A program made the translations under genes and the position numbers. 64,000 nucleotides of DNA from Patescibacteria group bacterium (lineage in GTDB: Bacteria; Patescibacteriota; Patescibacteriia; Veblenbacterales; UBA10138), in assembly GCA_041648575.1 (NCBI GenBank), contig JBAZOT010000003.1, positions 14,895 through 78,894 on the forward strand, read 5' to 3'. Under the pieces are notes generated by a model, which saw only the letters and a program-made list of their open reading frames with translations, had not been told where the DNA came from and did not search any database. Shown here piece by piece: positions 10,374 to 64,000 of this stretch; positions within the stretch are counted from its first letter, which is position 1; the number at the start of each line of letters is the position of its first letter.

Positions 10374-12881
10374 TTAATGATCTCTAACTTCTGCGTTAAA
10401 TTTTTTAATTAATATTTGCTTAATCTTTTCTATTACCTTGTCCACTTCTTCTGATGTTAATGTCCTATCCGAGGCACGTAAAGTCACGGTAAAGGCGATA
10501 CTGTGTTTAGGGGCGTAAACATCAAATAGTTCAATTGATTCTAATAAATCCATATTCTCAATTTCTTTTTGAATTTGAGACCAAGTTACCCTTTCTGGCA
10601 AAATAATTGATAGATCTCTCGCAGCTTCGGGGTACTCTGGTGGCGGTTCCGATGGGCTGGTCGGCCCTATTTCCAACATATCAAGTGACAACTCAATTAC
10701 TGCAGTAAATTCAGGCAAATCTAACTCCCGTCGTAATTTTTCTTGCAATATCCCGATGTGCCCAACTGTCTCGTTATTAATAATAATATCGGCTGCCATA
10801 TTTTCATTAAACCAGTCATGCTTAATTTTTTGCACTTCCACTAACTTAAAATCATTTTCCAGTTCATGGCCGATCTGTACGAGAACCCCAACCATATCAC
10901 GGTAACACCGGAGGAGGTCATCTCGTTCGTCACGTTTATTTCTACCAAGAACTATACCCAAATGAAACGGCTGTTTGGGTAAATTGCCACCCCCAGGTCT
11001 TCGTAAATACTCCTTACCGGATTCCGCCACAAAGACCCGGCCAATTTCAAACATTTTAACATTTTTATGTTTCTGACTATTTAAACCGGCTTGCCCTAAA
11101 AAGTTGGGTAATAAAGTTGGTCGTAAATAAGGCTTGCCCTGATCTGTTGGGTTTTCTAATTCAATACTTAAATCGCTTGTTATATGTTTACCTCTAATAG
11201 TCAGCCCAAAGTTTTGTAAATCTTTTTCACCCACAAATGAATGACTTAAAGTCTCTGTAAACCCAGCACCAATCAAGCACTCACGAATTTTTTGCATTAA
11301 CAATTGCTTTTCATCGGCCAATGGTTTAGTAATGGTAAAACTCGGCAGACTCGGCGTAATTTTTCCATAACCATAAATCCGTGCTACTTCCTCCAACAAA
11401 TCTTCACGAATTGTTACGTCTCTAGTGGCCCGCCATGAAGGCACGGTTACTTGCCATTTGACCACGCTGTCATCGCGATCCGCCCTGATCGGAGTGGCGA
11501 TCTTATGAGATTGCTTCGATCCGCTCGCAATGACTTTTATTTTAAAACCCAAATTCTCCAATATATTTTTAATCTGGCTATATTTTATTTTCGTACCCAA
11601 ACGCTCATTAATCCAATCGGGATTTACATTAATTTCAACCGGTTTAAATTTTTTAGGATATTCATCAACTAGGTCGCTGGCAACTTTTACGCCTGTAATT
11701 ATTTGTTGCATTATAGCCACAAAGCGCTTAATGCCAATTTCTGCTAGTTCTGGATCCAAAGCTTTTTCAAAACGAACAGATGCTTCGCTGCGTAAACCAA
11801 GTTTGCTGGCTGTTTGTCTTATACTAATCGGATTAAAAGTCGCAGATTCTACCACCAAGTTAGTTGTGCTAGATGAAACCTCACTAAACTCGCCACCCAT
11901 TACGCCAGCCACAGCAATCGCACTTTTATCATCAGCAATAACCAACATCTCACTGGATAATTTTCTGGATTCTCCATCTAGTGTTTTTATTACCTCTCCG
12001 GAGTTTGCTGTTCTGACAACAATTTTTGGAGAAGATAATTTTTGTAGATCAAAAGTGTGCAGTGGTTGGCCAGTTTCCAACATTACATAATTAGCAGCGT
12101 CCACCACATTATTTATTGATCTCATACCCAGGGCTTCTAATCTATTCTTTAACCATGTTGGTGATGAGGTAATCTTAATTCCAGCCAGCACCACCCCCAT
12201 ATACCTGTGGCATAAATCAGAGTTTTTAATTTCAACTTTAAACCCATTAGAGCCTTTTGGCAAATCAGCCAATTCCGGTAGTTTTAATTTTGTATTCCAC
12301 AAAGCTGCTAACTCCCTAGCCACACCCAAATGACTCCACAAATCAGGTCGATGAGTAATTGATTTATTATCAACTTCAATAACCAAATCATCTTTACCTA
12401 AAGCTTTGGCTAATAGTGTTCCAGGTTTAGCATCCAAATACGATAAATCCATAATGCCGTGCTCTGGTTCGTTATCATCAACCAAACCTAATTCTGCGGC
12501 CGAACAAGCCATACCATTACTTTTAACTCCACGAATAGTAGCAGCTTCCAATGACGCAAATTCACCCTCTCCATGCCATTTGACCAACGCGCCAGGTTGA
12601 GCCAGCGCGACTTTCATTCCTTCTTTTAAATTAATTCCTCCGCATACTATTTCCACTGTTTTGCCACCAATATCAACTGTAGCTAACTTTAATTTATCAG
12701 CATTAAGATGTGTTGATACTTTTATAACTAAGCCTACCGTGACTTTATTCAACTTTTCTGCCTCGCTGGTAACTGATTCTACCTCCATAACTGACATAGT
12801 CAAAAGCTCGCCCAACTCGCGCGCACTGATCCGCTTGGGTTTAACTATTAACTCTGCTAATGTTTTGTAAGAAAGATGCAT
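10374..12881 (-). CDS. pheT: phenylalanine--tRNA ligase beta subunit
   Basis: 835 aa with an N-terminal tRNA-binding domain, B3/4 and B5 domains, WQVTVPSWRATRDVTIREDLLEEVARIYGY, and a C-terminal FDX-ACB domain. Confidence 0.95.
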   Translation of the reverse strand: MHLSYKTLAELIVKPKRISARELGELLTMSVMEVESVTSEAEKLNKVTVGLVIKVSTHLNADKLKLATVDIGGKTVEIVCGGINLKEGMKVALAQPGALVKWHGEGEFASLEAATIRGVKSNGMACSAAELGLVDDNEPEHGIMDLSYLDAKPGTLLAKALGKDDLVIEVDNKSITHRPDLWSHLGVARELAALWNTKLKLPELADLPKGSNGFKVEIKNSDLCHRYMGVVLAGIKITSSPTWLKNRLEALGMRSINNVVDAANYVMLETGQPLHTFDLQKLSSPKIVVRTANSGEVIKTLDGESRKLSSEMLVIADDKSAIAVAGVMGGEFSEVSSSTTNLVVESATFNPISIRQTASKLGLRSEASVRFEKALDPELAEIGIKRFVAIMQQIITGVKVASDLVDEYPKKFKPVEINVNPDWINERLGTKIKYSQIKNILENLGFKIKVIASGSKQSHKIATPIRADRDDSVVKWQVTVPSWRATRDVTIREDLLEEVARIYGYGKITPSLPSFTITKPLADEKQLLMQKIRECLIGAGFTETLSHSFVGEKDLQNFGLTIRGKHITSDLSIELENPTDQGKPYLRPTLLPNFLGQAGLNSQKHKNVKMFEIGRVFVAESGKEYLRRPGGGNLPKQPFHLGIVLGRNKRDERDDLLRCYRDMVGVLVQIGHELENDFKLVEVQKIKHDWFNENMAADIIINNETVGHIGILQEKLRRELDLPEFTAVIELSLDMLEIGPTSPSEPPPEYPEAARDLSIILPERVTWSQIQKEIENMDLLESIELFDVYAPKHSIAFTVTLRASDRTLTSEEVDKVIEKIKQILIKKFNAEVRDH
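11469..11534. repeat. 66-nt palindromic element inserted in frame in pheT
   Basis: GTCATCGCGA...TCGCAATGAC termini. On the coding strand it is exactly 22 codons (VIASGSKQSHKIATPIRADRDD) in the loop before WQVTVPS. Confidence 0.7.
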
Positions 12882-12977
12882 GTAATTTCAAAATGTAAAA
12901 ATCAAAATGCAAAATGACAGATTAAACTTTAAAATTAATAAATAATTTTGATTTTTGATTTTTTAATTTTAAATTAA

Positions 12978-13025
12978 CTAAAATTGCTCTAAAAATCTTA
13001 AATTTACTGACAGAAGAAGAAATGA
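12978..13025 (-). pseudogene. orphan duplicate of the pheS 3' end
   Basis: Reads LSFLLLSVNLRFLEQF-stop versus the pheS tail IRLFLSGDLRFLEQF-stop. 12978-13003 matches 13899-13924 at 24/26 nt. Confidence 0.65.
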
Positions 13026-13034
13026 TAAATAACC

Positions 13035-13880
13035 CTACTTAATATTTCTTGATGAAGCCTCGTGTAATCCAGTAGATAAATCGCCCTTTGGTTGACTTAG
13101 ACAAAACAATAACACATAATCTTGATCATTATTCTTTGAGGTGTAAGTATAATCTTGATCGGGACAACCTCCTTCCATCCATGGCTGAGGATTACTGGGT
13201 ATCTGCCCCATATACACGGTTTCAAGTTTAGCATCGCAGTGACTCATAAAACCTTTTGAACTTAAACACAACCCACCCACAGCCAACGGTGCGGTGACTT
13301 TTGGATAATAATTTAACTCATCAAAATAAAACTCTAGCACCGTTTGTATTTGCCTTACGTCTGACAATCGTTTACCATCTCGTGATTTTTCTAATTTAGA
13401 ACTACCTGCGGGTAATACGCCAAGTAGAATCACTGCGATAATTATGTAACTCACCACATTAAACAAAACAGTCAATAGTGCGGTTTGACGACGAGTAAAT
13501 CCAAGCTTAAACAACCTACTTTTTACTACCCAGTACTCAATAAAAACAGTCGCGGGGAATAAAAATATGATGAAATAGGCAACATCAGTACCATAACCGT
13601 TTATTGGTAAAATTCCACCAATTATAGAAGTAACAAGATTGGCGATTAAGGATACTAAAATACTTTGCTTCCACGAAATTTCTTTTTTAAAAATCCAGCG
13701 CGAGAAATAGTAAATAGCTAGTGTCTCTGAAATAAAAATTATTGGGTAAATATACCAAACCGGAAGTAATGTATAGATAATTGGGGCTGCTAAATCCGCG
13801 TGGGCTATACCAGGCATCAACAACATGATTCCAATAACAAACAAGAGTCTATTAATTTTTATAATTATAAGTCGATTCAT
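13035..13880 (-). CDS. polytopic membrane protein with a C-terminal type IV pilin-like globular domain
   Basis: Signal-like N-terminus and about 5 TM helices, followed by SRDGKRLSDVRQIQTVLEFYFDELNYYP (the post-helix motif of pilin-like proteins) and paired Cys. It has no G/FTLIE prepilin site. Confidence 0.5.
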   Translation of the reverse strand: MNRLIIIKINRLLFVIGIMLLMPGIAHADLAAPIIYTLLPVWYIYPIIFISETLAIYYFSRWIFKKEISWKQSILVSLIANLVTSIIGGILPINGYGTDVAYFIIFLFPATVFIEYWVVKSRLFKLGFTRRQTALLTVLFNVVSYIIIAVILLGVLPAGSSKLEKSRDGKRLSDVRQIQTVLEFYFDELNYYPKVTAPLAVGGLCLSSKGFMSHCDAKLETVYMGQIPSNPQPWMEGGCPDQDYTYTSKNNDQDYVLLFCLSQPKGDLSTGLHEASSRNIK

Positions 13881-13898: not shown

Positions 13899-14921
13899 TT
13901 AAAATTGTTCTAAAAATCTTAAATCACCCGATAAAAATAGACGGATGTCATCAATCTGATATTTCATCATAACCAAACGAGACAGGCCTAAGCCAAAGGC
14001 AAAACCAGAAAATTTTTCAGGATTTACACCTCCAGCTTTTAATACGTTGGGATGCACTAAACCACAAGGCATCAATTCCACCCAACCAGATTGCTTACAA
14101 ACACTGCAACCTTTACCACCGCAAATAAAGCATTTTACATCCAGCTCAAATCCCGGCTCCACAAATGGAAAATAACCAGGTCGCAATCGAATCTCCACCT
14201 CTTTTTTAAATATTCCTTTTAACAACTCATTCATTACCCCGATCAAATGAGCTACGGTTATACCCTCTGCCACTACCAAACCTTCTAAGTGCCAAAAAGT
14301 ATTATCATGAGAAGCGTCAGTTGCTTCATAACGAAAGACTTTTCCCGGCACTACTGCGCGCAAAGGTGCGCCATATTTTTCCAGAGCCCTTACTTGCACG
14401 GACGAAGTATGAGTACGAAGCAACATCCTGTTGCCACTAATTGGCTTTTTTTCTTTAATATAAAAAGTGTCTTGAATATCTCGTGCTGGATGCCAGGAGG
14501 GAATATTTAAAGCCTCAAAATTATAATACTCGCTTTCCAATTCTGGTCCATCGAGTACCATAAAACCCATAGAGCGAAACAAATCTTCTAGTTCTTTTTG
14601 TACAATGGTTATGGGATGATAATGCCCGCGCGCGGGTTTAATACCAGGCAAAGTAACATCAAAAAATTCATCTAACTCTTTATTATTAGAAATATTTTTT
14701 TGCGTAAAAGCATTTTCTAAATCAACCTTCAACTCATTGGCTAACTTACCTAAACGTGGCCTCTGTTCTATACTAGATGCTTTAACCAATTGCATGACAG
14801 CGGCTAACTCTCCCTTACGGCCTAAATACTTAATCTGCCAATTTCGTAATTCGGCAGTCGAACGTAAAGATGACAATTCAGTCAGCGCTTGTTTTTTTAC
14901 ATTATTAATCTTATCAATCAT
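13899..14921 (-). CDS. pheS: phenylalanine--tRNA ligase alpha subunit
   Basis: 340 aa with class II motifs (HPARDIQDTFY, FRYEATDASH, GFAFGLGLSRL). Confidence 0.95.
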   Translation of the reverse strand: MIDKINNVKKQALTELSSLRSTAELRNWQIKYLGRKGELAAVMQLVKASSIEQRPRLGKLANELKVDLENAFTQKNISNNKELDEFFDVTLPGIKPARGHYHPITIVQKELEDLFRSMGFMVLDGPELESEYYNFEALNIPSWHPARDIQDTFYIKEKKPISGNRMLLRTHTSSVQVRALEKYGAPLRAVVPGKVFRYEATDASHDNTFWHLEGLVVAEGITVAHLIGVMNELLKGIFKKEVEIRLRPGYFPFVEPGFELDVKCFICGGKGCSVCKQSGWVELMPCGLVHPNVLKAGGVNPEKFSGFAFGLGLSRLVMMKYQIDDIRLFLSGDLRFLEQF

Positions 14922-31591: not shown

Positions 31592-31629
31592 TAGTCATTT
31601 TTATGTCTGGCCAGACATAAAAATGACTA
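31592..31629. repeat. 38-bp perfect palindrome TAGTCATTTTTATGTCTGG|CCAGACATAAAAATGACTA
   Basis: Read directly from the sequence. It shares the outer arms CAACTAGTCATTT...AAATGACTA with 32712-32749. Confidence 0.8.
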
Positions 31630-31843: not shown

Positions 31844-32566
31844 CTAAAACGATTGAAATGATCGGACAATCTTATCCACCCAGCTAGCCCTACGCATTAA
31901 CTCGTTAGCTATCTGCGGTGCTTGACCCTCCATTACCTTCGCCTCCTCAATCAGTATATTCCTCATCTCAACATTGGTGAGACCAGAAACATCATACCAA
32001 GCCAACGCGGTATCCAGATAAGAAATATTACCTGGTTCCATGTATCGTTCTCCAGTAACAACACTACGCATACCGTCGCTATAGAAACTGAGATACAAAT
32101 TACCAACCATCACCGCCGAGCGCGAAGCTGATACCGTATCACCGCACTTGATGTATAAGTGATAAGCATACTCTGGAAAACTCTTTCTCCCATAACCATC
32201 ATCACAATGTGGTATCCCATAGTATGTTAAGTCTGCTAGGAGTAAGCCCCACCCCTGACGTCTCTTGAACCAGTATGGATCATCACAGGAACTATCACAT
32301 ATCTGATAAATCCTTCTCACTGTGTTTACAAACTCCCAACCACAATAAAATGGGTCATCGGTCCCTGAATAACCCCCTACATCAGTCCATGAATAATTAT
32401 CTGGGTTATATCTCATACCCTCCACAATCTTATACTCGACCAGATTCTTGACCAAAGTGCGATAAGACTGTTCAGGGGACTCTTGCTTTTCCTTGGCAGG
32501 TAAAGTGTTATTTATGACTAAACCAGCCACAGCCAAAAAGATAATGATTGTAAAGTACTTTTTCAT
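31844..32566 (-). CDS. secreted Cys-rich hypothetical protein
   Basis: 240 aa with signal peptide MKKYFTIIIFLAVAGLV and 8 Cys. By eye it is more GC-rich at codon third positions than its neighbours. It has its own promoter and terminator. Confidence 0.55.
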   Translation of the reverse strand: MKKYFTIIIFLAVAGLVINNTLPAKEKQESPEQSYRTLVKNLVEYKIVEGMRYNPDNYSWTDVGGYSGTDDPFYCGWEFVNTVRRIYQICDSSCDDPYWFKRRQGWGLLLADLTYYGIPHCDDGYGRKSFPEYAYHLYIKCGDTVSASRSAVMVGNLYLSFYSDGMRSVVTGERYMEPGNISYLDTALAWYDVSGLTNVEMRNILIEEAKVMEGQAPQIANELMRRASWVDKIVRSFQSF

Positions 32567-32711: not shown

Positions 32712-32749
32712 TAGTCATTTACCCTTTCGCGCGAAAGGGTAAATGACTA
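32712..32749. repeat. 38-bp perfect palindrome TAGTCATTTACCCTTTCGC|GCGAAAGGGTAAATGACTA
   Basis: Read directly from the sequence. It lies between the arsR-like stop and the promoter of the 240-aa gene. Confidence 0.8.
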
Positions 32750-33062: not shown

Positions 33063-33100
33063 AGTATATCATATTTACTGATTCGCGCGAAAGGGTAAAT
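33063..33100 (-). promoter_or_regulatory. leaderless arsR promoter (TGA TATACT, 6 nt from the ATG) overlapped by a degenerate copy of the TTTACCC..GGGTAAA palindrome
   Basis: ATTTACTGATTCGCGCGAAAGGGTAAAT (33073-33100) covers the -35 position and may be an operator. Confidence 0.45.
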
Positions 33101-33120
33101 AATCATATAAACCAACACAT

Positions 33121-60292: not shown

Positions 60293-60550
60293 TTAAATTA
60301 GACTTAATGTTTCTCTTAATATTAGATGTAAAGATTTTTTCCCAGGATTAGTTTTAAAATATTTCTCGCGCCTTAGGGCGTCACCCTTAGCTAAAAAACC
60401 TTCATAAAAAATTAATTTACACGGGCGTCTATTCTTGGTAGCGGGTGCCCCTCCTGCGTTATGTGTTTTAACTCTGTCCTTTAAATTCGAAGTAAAACCA
60501 ATATAAAACTTTTTATCTTTCAAACTATATAATAGGTAAACGTAATACAT
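60293..60550 (-). CDS. GIY-YIG nuclease family protein (small stand-alone type)
   Basis: Matches MYYVYLLYSLKDKKFYIGFTSNLKDRVKTHN...ALRREKYFK. I prefer ATG 60548-50 over the upstream start in the ORF track. Confidence 0.8.
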   Translation of the reverse strand: MYYVYLLYSLKDKKFYIGFTSNLKDRVKTHNAGGAPATKNRRPCKLIFYEGFLAKGDALRREKYFKTNPGKKSLHLILRETLSLI

Positions 60551-60593
60551 TTGTCTACTGCCCTTAAAGTACGCGCTTCGCTTGACTTTAGGG

Positions 60594-60700
60594 CATGAAG
60601 TATATGCTAGCAAATTAATACGCCATGAAGTTGTATAAAGAAGTAAATACTTCTTGGCTCGCCATGAAGTTATGCGAATAAAATGAGCATATACTTCATG
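60594..60700. repeat. cluster of CATGAAGT/ACTTCATG repeats abutting the tmRNA 3' end
   Basis: A 15-bp inverted repeat CATGAAGTATATGCT (60594-608) pairs with AGCATATACTTCATG (60686-700). The direct repeat CGCCATGAAGTT occurs twice, and there is an inner hairpin AGAAGTA-AA-TACTTCT. Confidence 0.6.
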
Positions 60701-61081
60701 GTGGAGATGGCGGGAATTACACCCGCGTCTAAGACAATTAACTTTACCCTTCTACAAACTTAGTCTGATTAATTTTGACAGAAGTCAAATCAGACCAAAG
60801 CCCCTGTCAATCTGTCCTAAGTAATGTCGGCCTAAGCACTAGAACAATACTTAAACCCTGCTCGATAAATGACGCTCTATAAGACTATCGAGATCGTCTA
60901 ATAGAACGGCCTCTGCTTAAATTAAGCAAAAGCTGGTGCTAGTGTCAAAGTGCTAAAAGCAGCTTTGGCGCGAGCTACAAATGATTTGGCATTTGTGAAG
61001 TGTGATGCTTTTATTACGCAGACACATCAACTGCGGTCTGCCAGACAAAGATCACTGCCTTATCGATTGTTAAACATCCCC
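60699..61081 (-). ncRNA. ssrA: tmRNA (transfer-messenger RNA)
   Basis: The 5' GGGGATG pairs with the 3' CATCTCC-A-CCA, including a G3.U pair. T-arm GCGGG-TGTAATT-CCCGC. An internal tag frame ends ...LAPAFA-TAA with the stop inside hairpin GCTTAA-TT-TAAGC. Adjacent to smpB. Confidence 0.85.
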
Positions 61082-61167: not shown

Positions 61168-61614
61168 TTAATATTTTAACGAGCGTCTAATTTCTCTATT
61201 AACTTCTCTTTTTTTAATAGCTACTCTTTTATCATATTTATTCTTGCCCACAGCCACAGCAATCTCTACCTTTACCATACCGTGAGTAGTATACACTGAA
61301 ATTGGAACAATTGTCAAGCCTTTAACCCTGCCTTTACCTAATAAATAAGAAAGTTCTTTTTGATGCAAAAGTAATTTGCGATCACGCTTTGGCTCGTAAT
61401 TTTTTTGCACACCTCGGGCTGGTGCATAAGGCGCAATATGAGCGCCCACCAACCATAATTCACCCTGTTTGGGAATAACATAACTGCCTTGCAAATTAAT
61501 GCTACCGCGTTTAGCAGATTTCACTTCTGCGCCCTGCAATACCAAACCAGCTTCAAATTTCTCCTGAATATTGAAGTTAAATAGAGCTTTTTTATTGTCA
61601 GCTAAATGAGGCAT
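61168..61614 (-). CDS. smpB: SsrA-binding protein SmpB
   Basis: 148 aa with KFEAGLVLQGAEVKS and RKLLLHQKEL motifs. Confidence 0.95.
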   Translation of the reverse strand: MPHLADNKKALFNFNIQEKFEAGLVLQGAEVKSAKRGSINLQGSYVIPKQGELWLVGAHIAPYAPARGVQKNYEPKRDRKLLLHQKELSYLLGKGRVKGLTIVPISVYTTHGMVKVEIAVAVGKNKYDKRVAIKKREVNREIRRSLKY

Positions 61615-62362: not shown

Positions 62363-63250
62363 ATGGAAAAAAATAACATAAATAACGCAGTAGTTGATGA
62401 GGCGTTGAATGATACAGCGCCGATAACAACTGTGGAACCGGAATCAACGTCGCCTACTCCGGATCCGACACTAGCAATAGATGATCGACCAGAGCCAGAT
62501 CTTGCTCCAACAGGAGACGATCAATCGTGGTTCCAAAAAAATATTCTTTTAATCGGCCTGATTGTCGGGGTCGTGTTGGTGGCACTCATACTATTTGCGT
62601 TTAAGTCATGTGGCGGAGACGATAAGGGCACAAAAAAAACGACAAAGATCGTTGACTCAACAGCCGTAGCTGATTCAACTGCGAGGGCTAAAGCCGACTC
62701 GCTCGTGAAGGCTAAAGAACTCGGCTATCAAAATCTTATTGATTCACTAAATAAGATGCAGCCAATGAATCTATTGGACGTTATTTCTCAACTCGACGTT
62801 CAAGGAAAAATCTGGAAAAGCCAGGTTAAGGCAGTACAAACAGTGACTGGTAATCTTCACCAGAAAGCGCTGGCACTCGACGGCCAATCTAGAGTTGGAG
62901 TATGGGGTCAAATTACCCAAATGTCATCAACACTACCCAGTGTTTCCACTATTCCCGAGATCCTCAACACTATCTCAGCAGATGTTGTTGAGATAAAAAA
63001 GGACATAAAGGAACATCGGAAAGGTGCTCGTGCCTCTCATAATCAAGCGGTTGCCCAGCGCAATGAAATCCAGAACCAACTAGACGATCTGGATACTCAA
63101 ATAACTATGGCTCGTGGTGCACTTACTACTGCCAAAGAAGAGCTCAAAAAAGCTCTTCAATCTGGTGAGCAATCAAAAATTGATAACCAGATGATAAATC
63201 TCCAGCTTCGTCTTGAAGCTCTGGAAAGATTACAGAAAATACATAAGTAA
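62363..63250 (+). CDS. membrane-anchored coiled-coil protein
   Basis: 295 aa with a Pro/Thr/Asp-rich N-terminus, one TM helix (ILLIGLIVGVVLVALILFAF) and a long C-terminal coiled coil. RBS AGGAAGGA. Confidence 0.55.
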   Translation: MEKNNINNAVVDEALNDTAPITTVEPESTSPTPDPTLAIDDRPEPDLAPTGDDQSWFQKNILLIGLIVGVVLVALILFAFKSCGGDDKGTKKTTKIVDSTAVADSTARAKADSLVKAKELGYQNLIDSLNKMQPMNLLDVISQLDVQGKIWKSQVKAVQTVTGNLHQKALALDGQSRVGVWGQITQMSSTLPSVSTIPEILNTISADVVEIKKDIKEHRKGARASHNQAVAQRNEIQNQLDDLDTQITMARGALTTAKEELKKALQSGEQSKIDNQMINLQLRLEALERLQKIHK

Positions 63251-63274
63251 CCATCAATAAACATTGAGGTTACG

Positions 63275-63310
63275 AAGGAGTTATCAACGCATAACTCCTT
63301 TTTTATTTTT
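63275..63310 (+). terminator. intrinsic terminator
   Basis: AAGGAGTTAT-CAACGC-ATAACTCCTT followed by TTTTATTTTT. Confidence 0.7.
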
Positions 63311-63327
63311 AAGCCTTAGTGTTTGCC

Positions 63328-63398
63328 GTCATTGCGATTGTCACCCTACGGGTGATCTCCCGAAGGGACGACTTCGTCACGTTGTTCCTCGCAATGAC
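63328..63398. repeat. 71-bp palindromic element with GTCATTGCGA/TCGCAATGAC termini
   Basis: Perfect 10-bp terminal inverted repeat. Inner hairpins are TCACCC-TAC-GGGTGA, TCCC-GAA-GGGA and GACGA-CT-TCGTC. The termini match those of the pheT insert. Confidence 0.7.
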
Positions 63399-63407
63399 AA
63401 AAAAATG

Positions 63408-63425
63408 GTTGTTCCTCACAATGAC
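63408..63425. repeat. solo right-end copy GTTGTTCCTCACAATGAC
   Basis: Matches 63381-63398 at 17/18, lying 27 nt downstream of it. Confidence 0.55.
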
Positions 63426-63450
63426 CAAAAAACGACCAAACGCGTAGGTC

Positions 63451-64000
63451 CTATTTATTTAATATCTGCTCGGCTTTACCGATTAAGTTCTGAGCTTGAA
63501 ATTGCTTTTCTATCAACTCCGCTTTTCCAATCAATGCTTGAGCATTGGTTTTGCTTACCACCAACTTTTCCAAATTCTCGCCAATAGTACCAGAAAGCTT
63601 GCCTTGAGATAATTTATGCCCCAAAGTAGTATCTAATTCTTGGTACAATTTATCAATCATCGCTTGCTGTTCCCCGCCGTAACTGCCCTTAAAACTCGCT
63701 AATGCTGTTTTGGTATCAAGCGACAATACTTTATTTACTAAATTATGATCTTGAGCAGCAGGAATTATTTCAAATCTGCTTTTTAATATTCTCACATAAT
63801 CAGCCAGCTCGGTTTGCGCGTTTTTAGCCAGCTCATAAGTATGTGTCACAGTTTCAGCATCAAATTTATTTTTATCAATAAATTCCACTGCTAAATTTTT
63901 ATTAGTAGCAGGCGACAATAACTTGGTCTGTAATTTTACACCGTCAGTGACGCGATTATGCTTTACCATCTCGTCTACATAATTATAATCAACTTCTTTC
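63451..64000 (-). CDS. hypothetical helical protein; the 5' end probably lies beyond the window
   Basis: The frame stays open upstream of the M at 63969 (KEVDYNYVDEMVKHN...). The C-terminus has the internal repeat LIGKAE. No family recognised. Confidence 0.5.
   Translation of the reverse strand, partial: KEVDYNYVDEMVKHNRVTDGVKLQTKLLSPATNKNLAVEFIDKNKFDAETVTHTYELAKNAQTELADYVRILKSRFEIIPAAQDHNLVNKVLSLDTKTALASFKGSYGGEQQAMIDKLYQELDTTLGHKLSQGKLSGTIGENLEKLVVSKTNAQALIGKAELIEKQFQAQNLIGKAEQILNK

What the first reader, a model, noticed from the sequence alone, without database searches (positions are those of the whole stretch)
11469..11534. 66-nt palindromic repeat inserted in frame and codon-aligned in the essential pheT gene
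What the sequence shows: GTCATCGCGA...TCGCAATGAC (10-bp terminal inverted repeat with one G.U-type mismatch) spans exactly 22 codons on the coding strand. It encodes VIASGSKQSHKIATPIRADRDD between GFKIK and SVVKWQVTVPSWR. In the PheT sequences I remember, that loop is only a handful of residues long. The same termini (GTCATTGCGA/TCGCAATGAC) bound an intergenic 71-bp element at 63328-63398. The opposite strand of the insert yields the LRSARNDF-type peptide seen in the spurious ORF 11451-11672. Established background: Rickettsia palindromic elements are a precedent for in-frame insertion of palindromic repeats into protein-coding genes. Inference: this is a comparable phenomenon, tolerated in a surface loop of PheT.
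Basis: partly seen in the sequence, partly recalled or inferred. Interest (0 to 1): 0.65.

Follow-up and report, generated by a model that had tools for sequence, protein, structure and literature searches.

The report
Palindromic repeat translated inside pheT
A 66-base copy of a widespread bacterial palindromic repeat (a "CGTC-type REP" pair, the same broad class as some Rickettsia palindromic elements) sits in frame in the essential pheT gene of a Patescibacteria genome and adds a floppy 22-residue loop; this kind of insertion is already known, so here it is a new host and a new gene.

Summary
Window 11469-11534 is a 66-nt element bounded by GTCATTGCGA/TCGCGATGAC. It spans exactly codons 450-471 (VIASGSKQSHKIATPIRADRDD) of an intact 835-aa PheT on the minus strand.

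A second copy lies between convergent genes at 63328-63398.

A covariance model built only from 123 copies in other phyla finds both copies (E = 2.7e-6 and 8e-4).

The nearest PheT relative carries a 78-nt copy in the same loop and frame. The next clade, 74 of 120 homologues and all solved PheT structures have only a short 13-residue hairpin.

AlphaFold places the insert as a low-confidence coil at the tip of a beta-hairpin in the B5 domain.

The family has head (C/T)GTC, stem starting ATTGC, tail CCA, a heads-out dimer, no target duplication and no linked transposase. This matches the CGTC-tagged REP superfamily of Di Nocera et al. 2013. That superfamily includes Rickettsia RPE-4 and RPE-6 and was already reported inside genes, tRNA synthetases among them.

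It is a new member of a known kind. The new points are modest: Patescibacteria as host, recurrent hits in this PheT loop, and a box architecture conserved across phyla. How the element moves remains unknown.

The parts
10374..12881 (-). pheT, the beta subunit of phenylalanyl-tRNA synthetase. Intact 835-codon ORF that hosts the element.
   Evidence: ORF list. Pfam tRNA_bind, B3_4, B5, tRNA_synthFbeta and FDX-ACB all match. An identical protein is on record as a Patescibacteria MAG PheT. AlphaFold mean pLDDT is 89.9.
11469..11534 (-). 66-nt CGTC-type REP dimer, heads outward, translated as residues 450-471 (VIASGSKQSHKIATPIRADRDD).
   Evidence: Sequence, codon map, covariance-model hit 11467-11536 at 34.5 bits, E = 2.7e-6, and the only large P0001-specific insertion in the PheT alignment.
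11524..11534 (-). Box A, the outer left terminus on the coding strand: GTCATTGCGAG. It is preceded by A rather than the family's usual C/T.
   Evidence: Identical to the family consensus.
11509..11518 (-). Box B, the inner left box CGAAGCAATC. It is followed by the tail TCA instead of the consensus CCA.
   Evidence: Positions CG..GCAATC are at least 90% conserved in 123 copies, although they were not part of the search pattern.
11494..11503 (-). Box B', the inner right box AGATCGCCAC. This is a variant of GAGATTGCCAC with a T-to-C change.
   Evidence: The same GATCGCCAC variant occurs in the P0016 pheT copy.
11479..11493 (-). Arm mini-hairpin TCCG-ATCAGGG-CGGA between box B' and box A'.
   Evidence: Read directly from the sequence. 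The centroid of the DNA fold of this copy pairs exactly TCCG with CGGA. The covariance-model alignment treats the stretch as an insertion between the inner box and the terminus. Other copies carry variable local hairpins at the same position, for example GGCCCCTTCGGGGCC.
11469..11478 (-). Box A', the outer right terminus TCGCGATGAC. One A-to-G change gives a G.T wobble with box A. The + strand reads cTGTCATCGCGA, that is, a TGTC head.
63328..63398 (.). Second, intergenic copy of the same family: 71 nt with heads CGTC and TGTC. It lies between convergent ORFs 62363-63250(+) and 63451-63969(-), just after a terminator-like hairpin at 63274-63301.
   Evidence: The fold gives z = -4.6. Covariance-model hit at 24.8 bits, E = 8e-4.
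63409..63425 (.). Solo duplicated right end TTGTTCCTCACAATGAC. It matches 63382-63398 at 16 of 17 positions.
   Evidence: Sequence. 1-mismatch terminus hit at 63416-63425.
11451..11672 (+). Spurious antisense ORF that reads the element as VIAIRPDRSGDLMRLLRSARND.
   Evidence: It lies wholly inside pheT on the opposite strand.

Best explanation
The 66 nt are a copy of a non-autonomous palindromic repeat of the CGTC-tagged REP class, arranged as a dimer of two inverted about 30-nt units.

Each unit has a head (C/T)GTC, a stem that opens ATTGC...GCAAT around a small variable hairpin, and a tail CCA/CTC. The two heads face outward.

A copy landed in the DNA that encodes the tip of a beta-hairpin in the B5 domain of PheT. 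This most likely happened once, in the common ancestor of this lineage and its nearest known relative.

The copy is a multiple of three in length. It is read in a phase that avoids the TGA hidden in ...CAATGAC, so the ribosome translates straight through it. The enzyme gains a 22-residue, probably disordered, surface loop and stays functional. On this view the element is a tolerated passenger, and its palindrome has since partly decayed.

Shown: family membership, absence from related and solved PheTs, the in-frame reading, the loop position, no target-site duplication, and no transposase nearby.

Inferred: neutrality, translation of the insert, and the way it moves. My best guess for movement is insertion of a folded single-stranded hairpin by an enzyme acting in trans, as proposed for REP/REPIN elements. 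No enzyme is known for CGTC REPs.
For: Family membership:
- Their alignment shows inner boxes CG..GCAATC and GATTGC..CG conserved at 90% or more, although these were not in the search pattern.
- Model R1, built from these copies, finds both window copies and the copy in the relative's pheT.

CGTC tags:
- The base before GTCAT is C in 66% and T in 28% of 244 ends.
- The stem starts AT and the tail is CC(A).
- 115 of 122 copies have no target-site duplication.
- No recurrent neighbouring transposase was found in 120 loci, and none among the 58 window ORFs.
- This matches Table 1 and the text of PMC3733652.

It is an insertion and not an ancestral loop:
- The modal loop is 13 residues in 74 of 120 homologues.
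- P0003 and P0004 are empty, and P0001 and P0002 are sisters.
- PDB PheTs lack the segment.
- The B5 domain is 22 residues longer than its Pfam profile.

It is tolerated:
- The ORF is intact with all domains present.
- The insert is a coil with pLDDT 47-56 between two confident strands.

Same behaviour elsewhere:
- In-frame copies sit in GuaA and GluQRS.
- 6 of 106 metagenomic copies sit inside genes with Pfam domains.
- Published intragenic CGTC dimers encode 20-30 residues, including in the glyS-beta and ileS genes.
Against: - The single unit does not form the 8-9 bp stem with a 4-5 nt loop that defines the four published CGTC families. It has only ATTGC/GCAAT plus a mini-hairpin such as GCGAAGC. 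Membership therefore rests on the tags and the layout. I could not see the published consensus figure.
- The coding-strand head of the pheT copy is AGTC, not CGTC or TGTC.
- Translation of the insert and activity of the enzyme are not demonstrated.
- If the window and L001 copies are orthologous, their boxes are far better conserved (A 11/11, B 10/10, A' 9/10) than the flanking coding DNA (65% identity overall, 40-44% at third codon positions). A purely neutral passenger does not predict this. It needs independent insertions, gene conversion, or some constraint.
- The insertion points differ by two codons between the two genes.
Confidence: 0.85

Rival explanations
1. The insert has been co-opted. 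Either the 22-residue loop does something, such as a new contact of the B5 domain, or the hairpin in the mRNA or DNA regulates pheT. On this view it is kept by selection and not merely tolerated.
For: The family boxes are much better conserved between the window and L001 pheT copies than the surrounding codons. The same loop has been expanded repeatedly in Patescibacteria PheTs, in about 17 of 120, including a degenerate copy of this family in P0016 and other hairpin-forming inserts in P0054 and P0040. Di Nocera et al. speculate that some intragenic REPs modify protein activity.
Against: Conservation follows the DNA boxes and not a peptide motif. The arms between the boxes are unrelated in the two genes. 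The model gives a low-confidence coil. The window copy has lost most of its folding potential. Most relatives do without any insert. Recurrent hits are equally well explained by a permissive loop.
Confidence: 0.08
2. The window and L001 copies, and the P0016 copy, are separate and fairly recent insertions into a hot-spot. They are not one ancient event. The mechanism and consequences are otherwise the same as in the best explanation.
For: The insertion points differ: after GFKIK, after GFN and after GFKVEIING. The termini are nearly identical despite saturated synonymous sites. P0016 sits in a distant clade whose neighbours are empty. Other repeat types hit the same loop.
Against: P0001 and P0002 are sister taxa with an empty sister clade, so one event is more parsimonious. 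Both copies have the same orientation (short arm on the 5' side, GCCRC-type inner box and long arm on the 3' side), the same frame and the same 9-residue distance to PSWR.
Confidence: 0.3
3. The element is a classical MITE: a deleted insertion sequence with terminal inverted repeats, moved by a DDE transposase that recognises GTCATTGCGAG.
For: It has 10-11 bp terminal inverted repeats, a size of 60-80 nt, dispersed copies and an intergenic preference.
Against: 115 of 122 copies have no target-site duplication. No transposase recurs near 120 copies and none is in the window. The inner boxes repeat the terminal core ATTGC/GCAAT and the arms carry independent mini-hairpins, which is REP-dimer architecture. 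Copies are rare on plasmids and essentially absent from phages.
Confidence: 0.07
4. The 22 residues are an old lineage-specific PheT loop whose DNA only happens to look palindromic. Alternatively, the segment is removed as an intron or intein, or by ribosomal bypass.
For: None beyond the fact that this loop varies in length among PheTs.
Against: A covariance model built from unrelated phyla matches the segment end to end, E = 2.7e-6. An intergenic copy exists in the same window. The segment is open in frame with no stop, is only 66 nt long, and matches no Rfam intron family. The only gathering-level Rfam hit in the whole window is tmRNA.
Confidence: 0.02

Closest known systems
CGTC-tagged REPs (Di Nocera, De Gregorio and Rocco 2013, BMC Genomics 14:522; PMC3733652), especially family CGTC-3 (CGTC ATTGCCGGG CTTGA CCCGGCAAT CCA, peptide VIAGLDPAIH)
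   Same: An unpaired (C/T)GTC head. A stem opening AT, here ATTGC...GCAAT exactly as in CGTC-3. A 3-nt CCA-type tail. Mostly dimers. Mostly downstream of, or between, convergent ORFs. No associated transposase. Intragenic dimers that encode 20-30 residues, including in tRNA-synthetase genes.
   Different: The unit between ATTGC and GCAAT is not a continuous 8-9 bp stem with a 4-5 nt loop. It is a short, very variable mini-hairpin (GCGNAGC, GGCCCCAAAGGGGCC and others). The signature peptides VIAS/VIAR...KQS...ARND are not in the paper's intragenic list. The hosts here include Patescibacteria, Bacteroidota, Chloroflexota and Nitrospirota, whereas the paper names five phyla, mainly Alphaproteobacteria.
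Rickettsia palindromic elements (Ogata et al. 2000, 2002); RPE-4 and RPE-6 are classed as CGTC-4 and CGTC-1
   Same: Palindromic repeats inserted in frame in unrelated housekeeping genes and translated, judged compatible with the protein fold. R. conorii CGTC-1 dimers read SFLRKQES...DSRFRGND, that is, heads out and ending ...ND, like VIAS...RDD here.
   Different: RPE-1 and most RPE families are 100-150 bp and specific to Rickettsia. The stem sequences differ: ATTCC... against ATTGC.... The host here is a free-living or episymbiotic Patescibacteria MAG. In Rickettsia intragenic copies are very frequent, whereas only about 6% of the copies sampled here are intragenic.
REPINs mobilised by RAYT (TnpA-REP) tyrosine transposases (Bertels and Rainey 2011)
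   Same: Two inverted REP units form a 60-110 nt hairpin. The elements are non-autonomous and make no target duplication.
   Different: REPIN units carry GTAG-type heads and flank a single-copy RAYT gene. No Y1 transposase was seen in the window. The literature reports none for CGTC REPs.
Bacterial MITEs found inside genes (Coxiella QMITE1, enterobacterial RU/ERIC, Neisseria Correia; review PMC10969869)
   Same: Small dispersed inverted-repeat elements that sometimes create in-frame fusions.
   Different: Those elements have target-site duplications and/or recognisable parent IS elements. This family has neither.
Neisseria dRS3 repeats (classed as CGTC-1)
   Same: According to PMC3733652 they share the CGTC superfamily tags.
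   Different: They have a different stem and occur in large clusters. I did not compare the sequences directly.

Membership tests
CGTC-tagged REP superfamily (PMC3733652) | An unpaired terminal CGTC motif, with TGTC or CCTC allowed, at the head of each unit | tested here: met
   Family: the base before GTCAT is C in 162 and T in 68 of 244 ends. Window copies: TGTC at 11467-11470 (+), CGTC at 63327 (+), and TGTC at the right end of the 63328 copy. The coding-strand head of the pheT copy is AGTC, an exception.
CGTC-tagged REP superfamily (PMC3733652) | A stem whose first two positions are complementary A-T and T-A | tested here: met
   ATTGC...GCAAT is found in every unit. These columns are invariant or at least 90% conserved.
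CGTC-tagged REP superfamily (PMC3733652) | A stem of 8-9 bp with a loop of 4-5 nt | tested here: not met
   Within one unit only ATTGC/GCAAT (5 bp) pair. Between them lies a mini-hairpin of variable length. The unit length of 22 nt in the commonest form equals 9+4+9. The authors note that bulged units may have escaped their survey.
CGTC-tagged REP superfamily (PMC3733652) | A short unpaired 3-nt tail, consensus CCA | tested here: met
   GCAAT is followed by CC in most copies and by CT in a minority (column 40: C about 75, T about 26). The third base is A in about 70 of 123. The window pheT copy has TCA.
CGTC-tagged REP superfamily (PMC3733652) | Predominantly dimers; no associated transposase gene | tested here: met
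   All 123 genome copies and 106 metagenome copies are heads-out dimers, because the search patterns required this. No recurrent neighbouring protein family other than ABC ATPases was found. There is no transposase in the window.
CGTC-tagged REP superfamily (PMC3733652) | Identity with one of the four published families CGTC-1 to CGTC-4 | tested here: inconclusive
   Consensus sequences are given only in a figure that is not held. From the peptides in Additional file 3, CGTC-1 = ATTCCCGC..., CGTC-3 = ATTGCCGGG... and CGTC-4 = ATTCCGTGG.... None equals ATTGCGAGCGAAGCGAAGCAAT. The peptide strings of this family are absent from the supplements.
Rickettsia palindromic elements (RPE) | Membership of one of the Rickettsia RPE sequence families | not tested
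   No RPE consensus sequences were available for direct comparison. The link to RPE-4 and RPE-6 rests on the classification in PMC3733652.
Rickettsia palindromic elements (RPE) | In-frame insertion in housekeeping genes at sites compatible with the fold | tested here: met
   There are 22 codons with no stop, at the tip of a B5 beta-hairpin, in a low-pLDDT coil.
MITE | Target-site duplication flanking the terminal inverted repeats | tested here: not met
   115 of 122 copies have no direct repeat at the junctions.
MITE | A parent insertion sequence with the same termini | tested here: inconclusive
   None was seen near 120 copies or in the window. Whole genomes were not searched.
REPIN/RAYT system | A RAYT (Y1 transposase) gene flanked by the REPs; GTAG-type head | tested here: not met
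   The head is CGTC/TGTC, not GTAG. There is no Y1_Tnp domain in any of the 58 window ORFs. The rest of the genome was not available.
Rfam RNA families | A match at the gathering score | tested here: not met
   In the window only tmRNA matches. Nothing lies on the elements in 15 loci. Only chance-level hits appear around 63200-63500.

The most novel reading that the evidence does not exclude
The ATTGC-type CGTC element may be an actively maintained replicator and not a fossil.

Its four boxes (A, B, B', A') stay nearly identical across more than ten phyla. They also stay nearly identical inside pheT in two lineages whose synonymous sites are saturated. The arms between the boxes, by contrast, turn over as self-complementary mini-hairpins.

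That pattern would imply a conserved, still unidentified trans-acting factor, or copy-to-copy gene conversion, acting even on intragenic copies. The tiny Patescibacteria genomes would then be a tractable place to find the missing mobilising enzyme of CGTC REPs. The PheT B5 hairpin would be a preferred landing site and not just a permissive one.
Probability: 0.15. Interest if true: 0.6.

Novelty: new member of a known kind. Interest (0 to 1): 0.35.

Why it matters
This finding extends translated selfish palindromes in essential genes from Rickettsia and a few Proteobacteria to the Candidate Phyla Radiation (Patescibacteria). Those genomes are about 1 Mb with very little intergenic space, so permissive protein loops may be among the few places a repeat can survive.

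It has two practical consequences. Annotators should expect VIAS/VIAR...KQS...ARND-type peptides, and the antisense ORFs they spawn, to be repeat-derived. Length variation in the PheT B5 hairpin should not be read as functional divergence.

It also gives a well-defined cross-phylum family with a working covariance model. With that model, the unresolved question of how CGTC REPs move could be approached by phylogenetic profiling.

Tried and rejected
- Full-text literature searches with the DNA termini and with six signature peptides found only unrelated primer matches or nothing.
- Br-REP1 and Br-REP2 and the sORF bll1319_ISGA of Bradyrhizobium (PMC5082802) looked promising but are different sequences.
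- Rfam gave no family, either at the gathering score or at a permissive E-value.
- Clustering of all ORFs within 2.5 kb of 120 copies gave only an ABC-ATPase cluster. That is a large paralogous family, not a candidate mobiliser.
- Searches for a vector found 10 plasmid records, all large replicons of hosts that carry the family, and one partial phage hit. Nothing points to a vehicle.
I used DNA scans plus ORF and Pfam checks instead.
- Stop-to-stop ORF spanning as a test for intragenic copies is useless in high-GC genomes, where L059 and L091 gave long ORFs with no Pfam match. Only copies with Pfam support were counted.
- The P0114 (L124) loop insert, first taken for another palindrome, does not fold better than shuffles (z = +1.5) and was dropped from the hot-spot argument.
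- The half-element pairing idea, in which B' ATCGC pairs with A' GCGAT and compensating changes are shared by the window and P0016 copies, could not be tested. The scan patterns fixed the terminal sequence.
- I also considered an intron, an intein and translational bypass, and rejected them. The insert is short, open and in frame.
Full report
**What is there.** The window comes from a Patescibacteria (CPR) metagenome-assembled genome. The 835-aa ORF 10374..12881 on the minus strand is identical to a deposited 'MAG: phenylalanine--tRNA ligase subunit beta [Patescibacteria group bacterium]' on a 101-kb contig. It carries all five PheT Pfam domains.

At 11469-11534 the + strand reads GTCATCGCGA TCCGCCCTGATCGGA GTGGCGATCT TATGA GATTGCTTCG ATCCG CTCGCAATGAC. 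On the coding strand this is GTC ATT GCG AGC ... CGC GAT GAC. That is exactly 22 codons, VIASGSKQSHKIATPIRADRDD, residues 450-471, between GFKIK and SVVKWQVTVPSWR.

The termini are complementary over 10 bp, with one T.G wobble on the coding strand.

A 71-nt element with the termini GTCATTGCGA/TCGCAATGAC lies at 63328-63398. It sits in the spacer between convergent ORFs and follows a terminator-like hairpin. It is followed by a 17-nt duplicate of its right end at 63409-63425.

The antisense ORF 11451-11672 reads the pheT copy as ...LLRSARNDF.

**Is it more than chance?** Counting the 10-mer is not convincing on its own (7 hits against 3.5 expected). The pheT copy also no longer folds much better than shuffled sequence: z = -0.9 as DNA, and -1.8 and -2.3 as RNA. 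The intergenic copy gives z = -4.6.

The decisive test was independent. I scanned one genome per species (185,579 species) for GTCATTGCGA-N30-60-TCGCAATGAC. Copies came from Bradyrhizobium, Sphingomonas, Novosphingobium, Mucilaginibacter, Tannerella, Chloroflexota, Nitrospirota, Microcoleus, Sedimentisphaerales, Deltaproteobacteria, Legionellales, Rickettsiales, Berkelbacteria and Saccharibacteria.

The 123 copies align well. Positions that were not in the search pattern are at least 90% conserved: CG..GCAATC on the left and GATTGC..CG on the right.

A covariance model built from this alignment contains no sequence from the window. It matches window 11467-11536 end to end (34.5 bits, E = 2.7e-6) and 63326-63400 (24.8 bits, E = 8e-4). 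It also matches the pheT copy of the nearest relative (45 bits) and two copies next to pheS and pheT in a Falkowbacteria MAG (L124). It finds nothing else in the window.

**Anatomy of the family.** Each copy has the layout head (C/T)GTC, box A ATTGCGAG, a variable mini-hairpin, box B GAAGCAAT plus the tail CC(A), a variable spacer, box B' (T)GG ATTGCTTC, a variable mini-hairpin, box A' CTCGCAAT, and head GAC(G/A).

The base before GTCAT is C in 66% and T in 28% of 244 ends. 115 of 122 copies have no target-site duplication.

The outer and inner helices pair in 93% of cells, with covarying pairs next to the spacer (CG/UA and AU/CG). For a DNA palindrome this cannot distinguish an RNA structure from a DNA structure or from a symmetric protein site.

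The arms are often not complementary to each other, yet each is self-complementary. Examples are GCGNAGC with all four N, GGCCCCAAAGGGGCC, GCACCCGCAGGGTGC and GGCCCCTTCGGGGCC. The element is therefore better described as two inverted hairpin units than as one long hairpin.

The pheT copy fits this plan box by box (see parts). It has two substitutions, GATTGCC to GATCGCC and GCAATGAC to GCGATGAC.

**It is an insertion.** In a 120-sequence PheT alignment, the stretch between the conserved LGF and PSWR is 13 residues in 74 sequences. Residues 451-471 are the only large P0001-specific insertion.

The solved PheT structures (2rhs_B, 7n8y_B and others) have the short form. The B5 domain match spans 89 residues against a 67-position profile.

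The closest full-length relative, P0002, is 59% identical by BLASTP. A global alignment gives 64% overall and 75% over the N-terminal part before the insert. It carries GTCATTGCGAGGAGCGAAGCGACGAAGCAATCCCAGGAGATTGCCGCGCACCTCGGCAAGCTCGGTGCTCGCAATGAC. This is 78 nt, encoding VIARSEATKQSQEIAAHLGKLGARND. It lies in the same loop, frame and orientation, two codons further upstream.

P0003 and P0004, the sister clade in a neighbour-joining tree, have the plain loop EIWNKDKDAWMVKV. One insertion in the P0001/P0002 ancestor is the most parsimonious reading.

Against a simple neutral history, boxes A, B and A' are identical at 11/11, 10/10 and 9/10 positions between the two genes. The flanking coding DNA is 65% identical, and only 40-44% at third codon positions. 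The alternatives are independent insertions, homogenisation by other copies, or constraint on the boxes. I cannot decide among them.

**A permissive loop that is hit repeatedly.** P0016 belongs to a distant clade whose neighbours are empty. It has a degenerate 99-nt copy of the same family at the same place and in the same frame (GTT ACT GGG AGC ... CGC GAT GAC). That copy shares the GATCGCCAC and TCGCGATGAC variants with the window copy and folds at z = -2.9.

P0054 and P0068 (SPLAPLLGKERGIRGE; z = -3.9) and P0040 (z = -2.4) carry other hairpin-forming inserts there. The P0114 insert is not palindromic (z = +1.5) and I do not count it.

About 17 of 120 Patescibacteria PheTs have 20 or more residues in this loop.

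The AlphaFold model (60-sequence alignment, mean pLDDT 89.9) has strands at 447-452 and 474-480. Between them, 453-473 is coil with pLDDT 47-56, against about 95 just before the insert and 81-89 just after it. The insert sits at the tip of a beta-hairpin of the B5 domain.

**Other in-frame copies.** Among the genome loci, a 78-nt copy interrupts the GATase domain of GMP synthase (VIARPRSGAAISKNSEIASEGAPRND). A 76-nt copy splits the catalytic domain of a GluQ-tRNA synthetase-like protein.

A second scan, of metagenome contigs, used the low-GC variant GTCATTGCGAG-N5-30-GCAATCTC-N0-30-GAGATTGC. Six of these are in frame inside genes with Pfam support:
- a ResIII helicase;
- a class-I LysRS fused to a B3_4 domain;
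- two radical-SAM enzymes;
- a methyltransferase;
- an NTPase_1.

These copies use different phases. Several enter as S-L-R and leave as R-N-D, which is possible only because their length is not a multiple of three. In-frame, stop-free copies are therefore survivors of selection. They are not a property of the insertion process, and codon alignment of the pheT copy has no special meaning. Most copies, roughly 90% or more, are intergenic.

**What it is called.** No Rfam family matches. Full-text searches with the sequence or its peptides found nothing relevant.

The tags, however, are those of the CGTC-tagged REP superfamily of Di Nocera, De Gregorio and Rocco (2013; PMC3733652). That paper describes the following features:
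- an unpaired CGTC head, changed to TGTC in many repeats;
- stems that almost invariably begin with complementary A and T;
- a CCA tail;
- predominantly dimers;
- a preference for positions downstream of unidirectional and convergent ORFs;
- no associated transposase;
- intragenic copies.

Their family CGTC-3 is CGTC-ATTGCCGGG-CTTGA-CCCGGCAAT-CCA (peptide VIAGLDPAIH). It differs from the present unit only in what lies between ATTGC and GCAAT.

[quoted passage not shown] They list such inserts in tRNA-synthetase genes, for example E. litoralis glyS-beta and ileS.

R. conorii CGTC-1 dimers read SFLRKQES...DSRFRGND. This is the same heads-out layout that gives VIAS...RDD here (my inference from their table).

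One defining feature, an 8-9 bp stem with a 4-5 nt loop in the single unit, is not met. I could not see their consensus figure. I therefore file the element as a member of the CGTC superfamily at the level of tags and layout, probably as a family or variant not among the four listed. I do not file it as an RPE in the strict sense, nor as a MITE (no duplication, no parent IS), nor as a RAYT-linked REPIN (wrong head, no Y1 transposase seen).

**How it most likely works.**

Shown: a dispersed, non-autonomous, heads-out REP dimer lies in frame at a hairpin tip of an otherwise intact, confidently modelled PheT. Relatives without it exist.

Inferred: the insert is translated into a disordered surface loop and is neutral or nearly so. 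It arrived as a folded single strand without duplicating its target, as proposed for REP/REPIN elements.

The mobilising activity is unknown. No transposase is present among the 58 ORFs of the window. None recurs near 120 copies. Copies are rare on plasmids and practically absent from phages. The 2013 paper concludes that CGTC REPs lack a dedicated transposase, and a 2018 survey of HUH Y1 enzymes that I checked adds nothing on CGTC REPs.

**Verdict.** The phenomenon is already described in the literature, so this is a new member of a known kind.

Three points are new:
- the host group (Patescibacteria);
- the gene, and the repeated use of one PheT loop;
- the box architecture of the ATTGC-type family, conserved across phyla, with arms that turn over quickly.

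The unexpectedly high conservation of the boxes inside pheT is the one observation that the passenger model does not explain.

**Limits.** Only 64 kb of the source genome was available. Translation and enzyme activity are untested.

Noticed in passing
window 31592-31629 and 32712-32749 (also 33072-33101): Two perfect 38-bp palindromes are each preceded by CAAC: TAGTCATTTTTATGTCTGG|CCAGACATAAAAATGACTA and TAGTCATTTACCCTTTCGC|GCGAAAGGGTAAATGACTA. They bracket a 1.1-kb stretch that holds an unannotated 240-aa ORF (31844-32566, no Pfam hit). The motif TAGTCATTT occurs 4 times against 0.8 expected. Their ends, GTCATTT...AAATGAC, resemble the head of the CGTC element. A partial relative, GCGCGAAAGGGTAAATA, lies at 33085-33101.
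   Followed up: partly
window 60296-60613 (-), next to tmRNA 60699-61081 (-) and smpB 61168-61614 (-): A stand-alone 106-aa GIY-YIG nuclease-domain protein lies between infC and the tmRNA gene. Another GIY-YIG ORF lies near pheT in the Falkowbacteria locus L124 (8412-8520). Small nucleases of this kind are untested candidates for acting on hairpin repeats.
   Followed up: no
L124 1366-1506 and 5525-5678: In a Falkowbacteria MAG, two long variants (141 and 154 nt) of the same CGTC family lie upstream of pheS and 5 nt downstream of the pheT stop codon. They have large extra hairpins in one arm and in the spacer (41.7 and 30.7 bits with model R1).
   Followed up: partly
L169 3-2456 (+): A low-GC (37%) metagenome contig has a single ORF that joins a class-I lysyl-tRNA synthetase (tRNA-synt_1f plus Anticodon_2) to a PheT-type B3_4 domain. 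A CGTC dimer is translated in the linker between them (VSLRGMHQTVRPVAISEIASSSVSRRTPRND).
   Followed up: no
window 13035-13880 (-): A 281-aa predicted membrane protein with no Pfam hit sits between pheS (13899-14921) and pheT. In the relative L002 pheS and pheT are adjacent. The 150-bp spacer between this ORF and pheT (12882-12978) is an A/T-rich 44-nt imperfect inverted repeat.
   Followed up: no
window, whole: There is an extreme gene-strand bias: 55 of the 58 ORFs of at least 100 aa are on the minus strand. No tRNA gene occurs in the 64 kb.
   Followed up: no
window 11494-11503 and 11469-11478; L123 pheT loop: The window and P0016 copies share two substitutions that change the core pentamer in box B' (ATTGC to ATCGC) and in box A' (GCAAT to GCGAT) in a mutually complementary way. 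This is as if B' and A' pair with each other in a half-element hairpin. It could not be tested on the family because the scan patterns fixed the terminal sequence.
   Followed up: partly
L099 138-217 and 243-323: Two nearly identical copies of the element lie in tandem 25 nt apart, which suggests local duplication.
   Followed up: no
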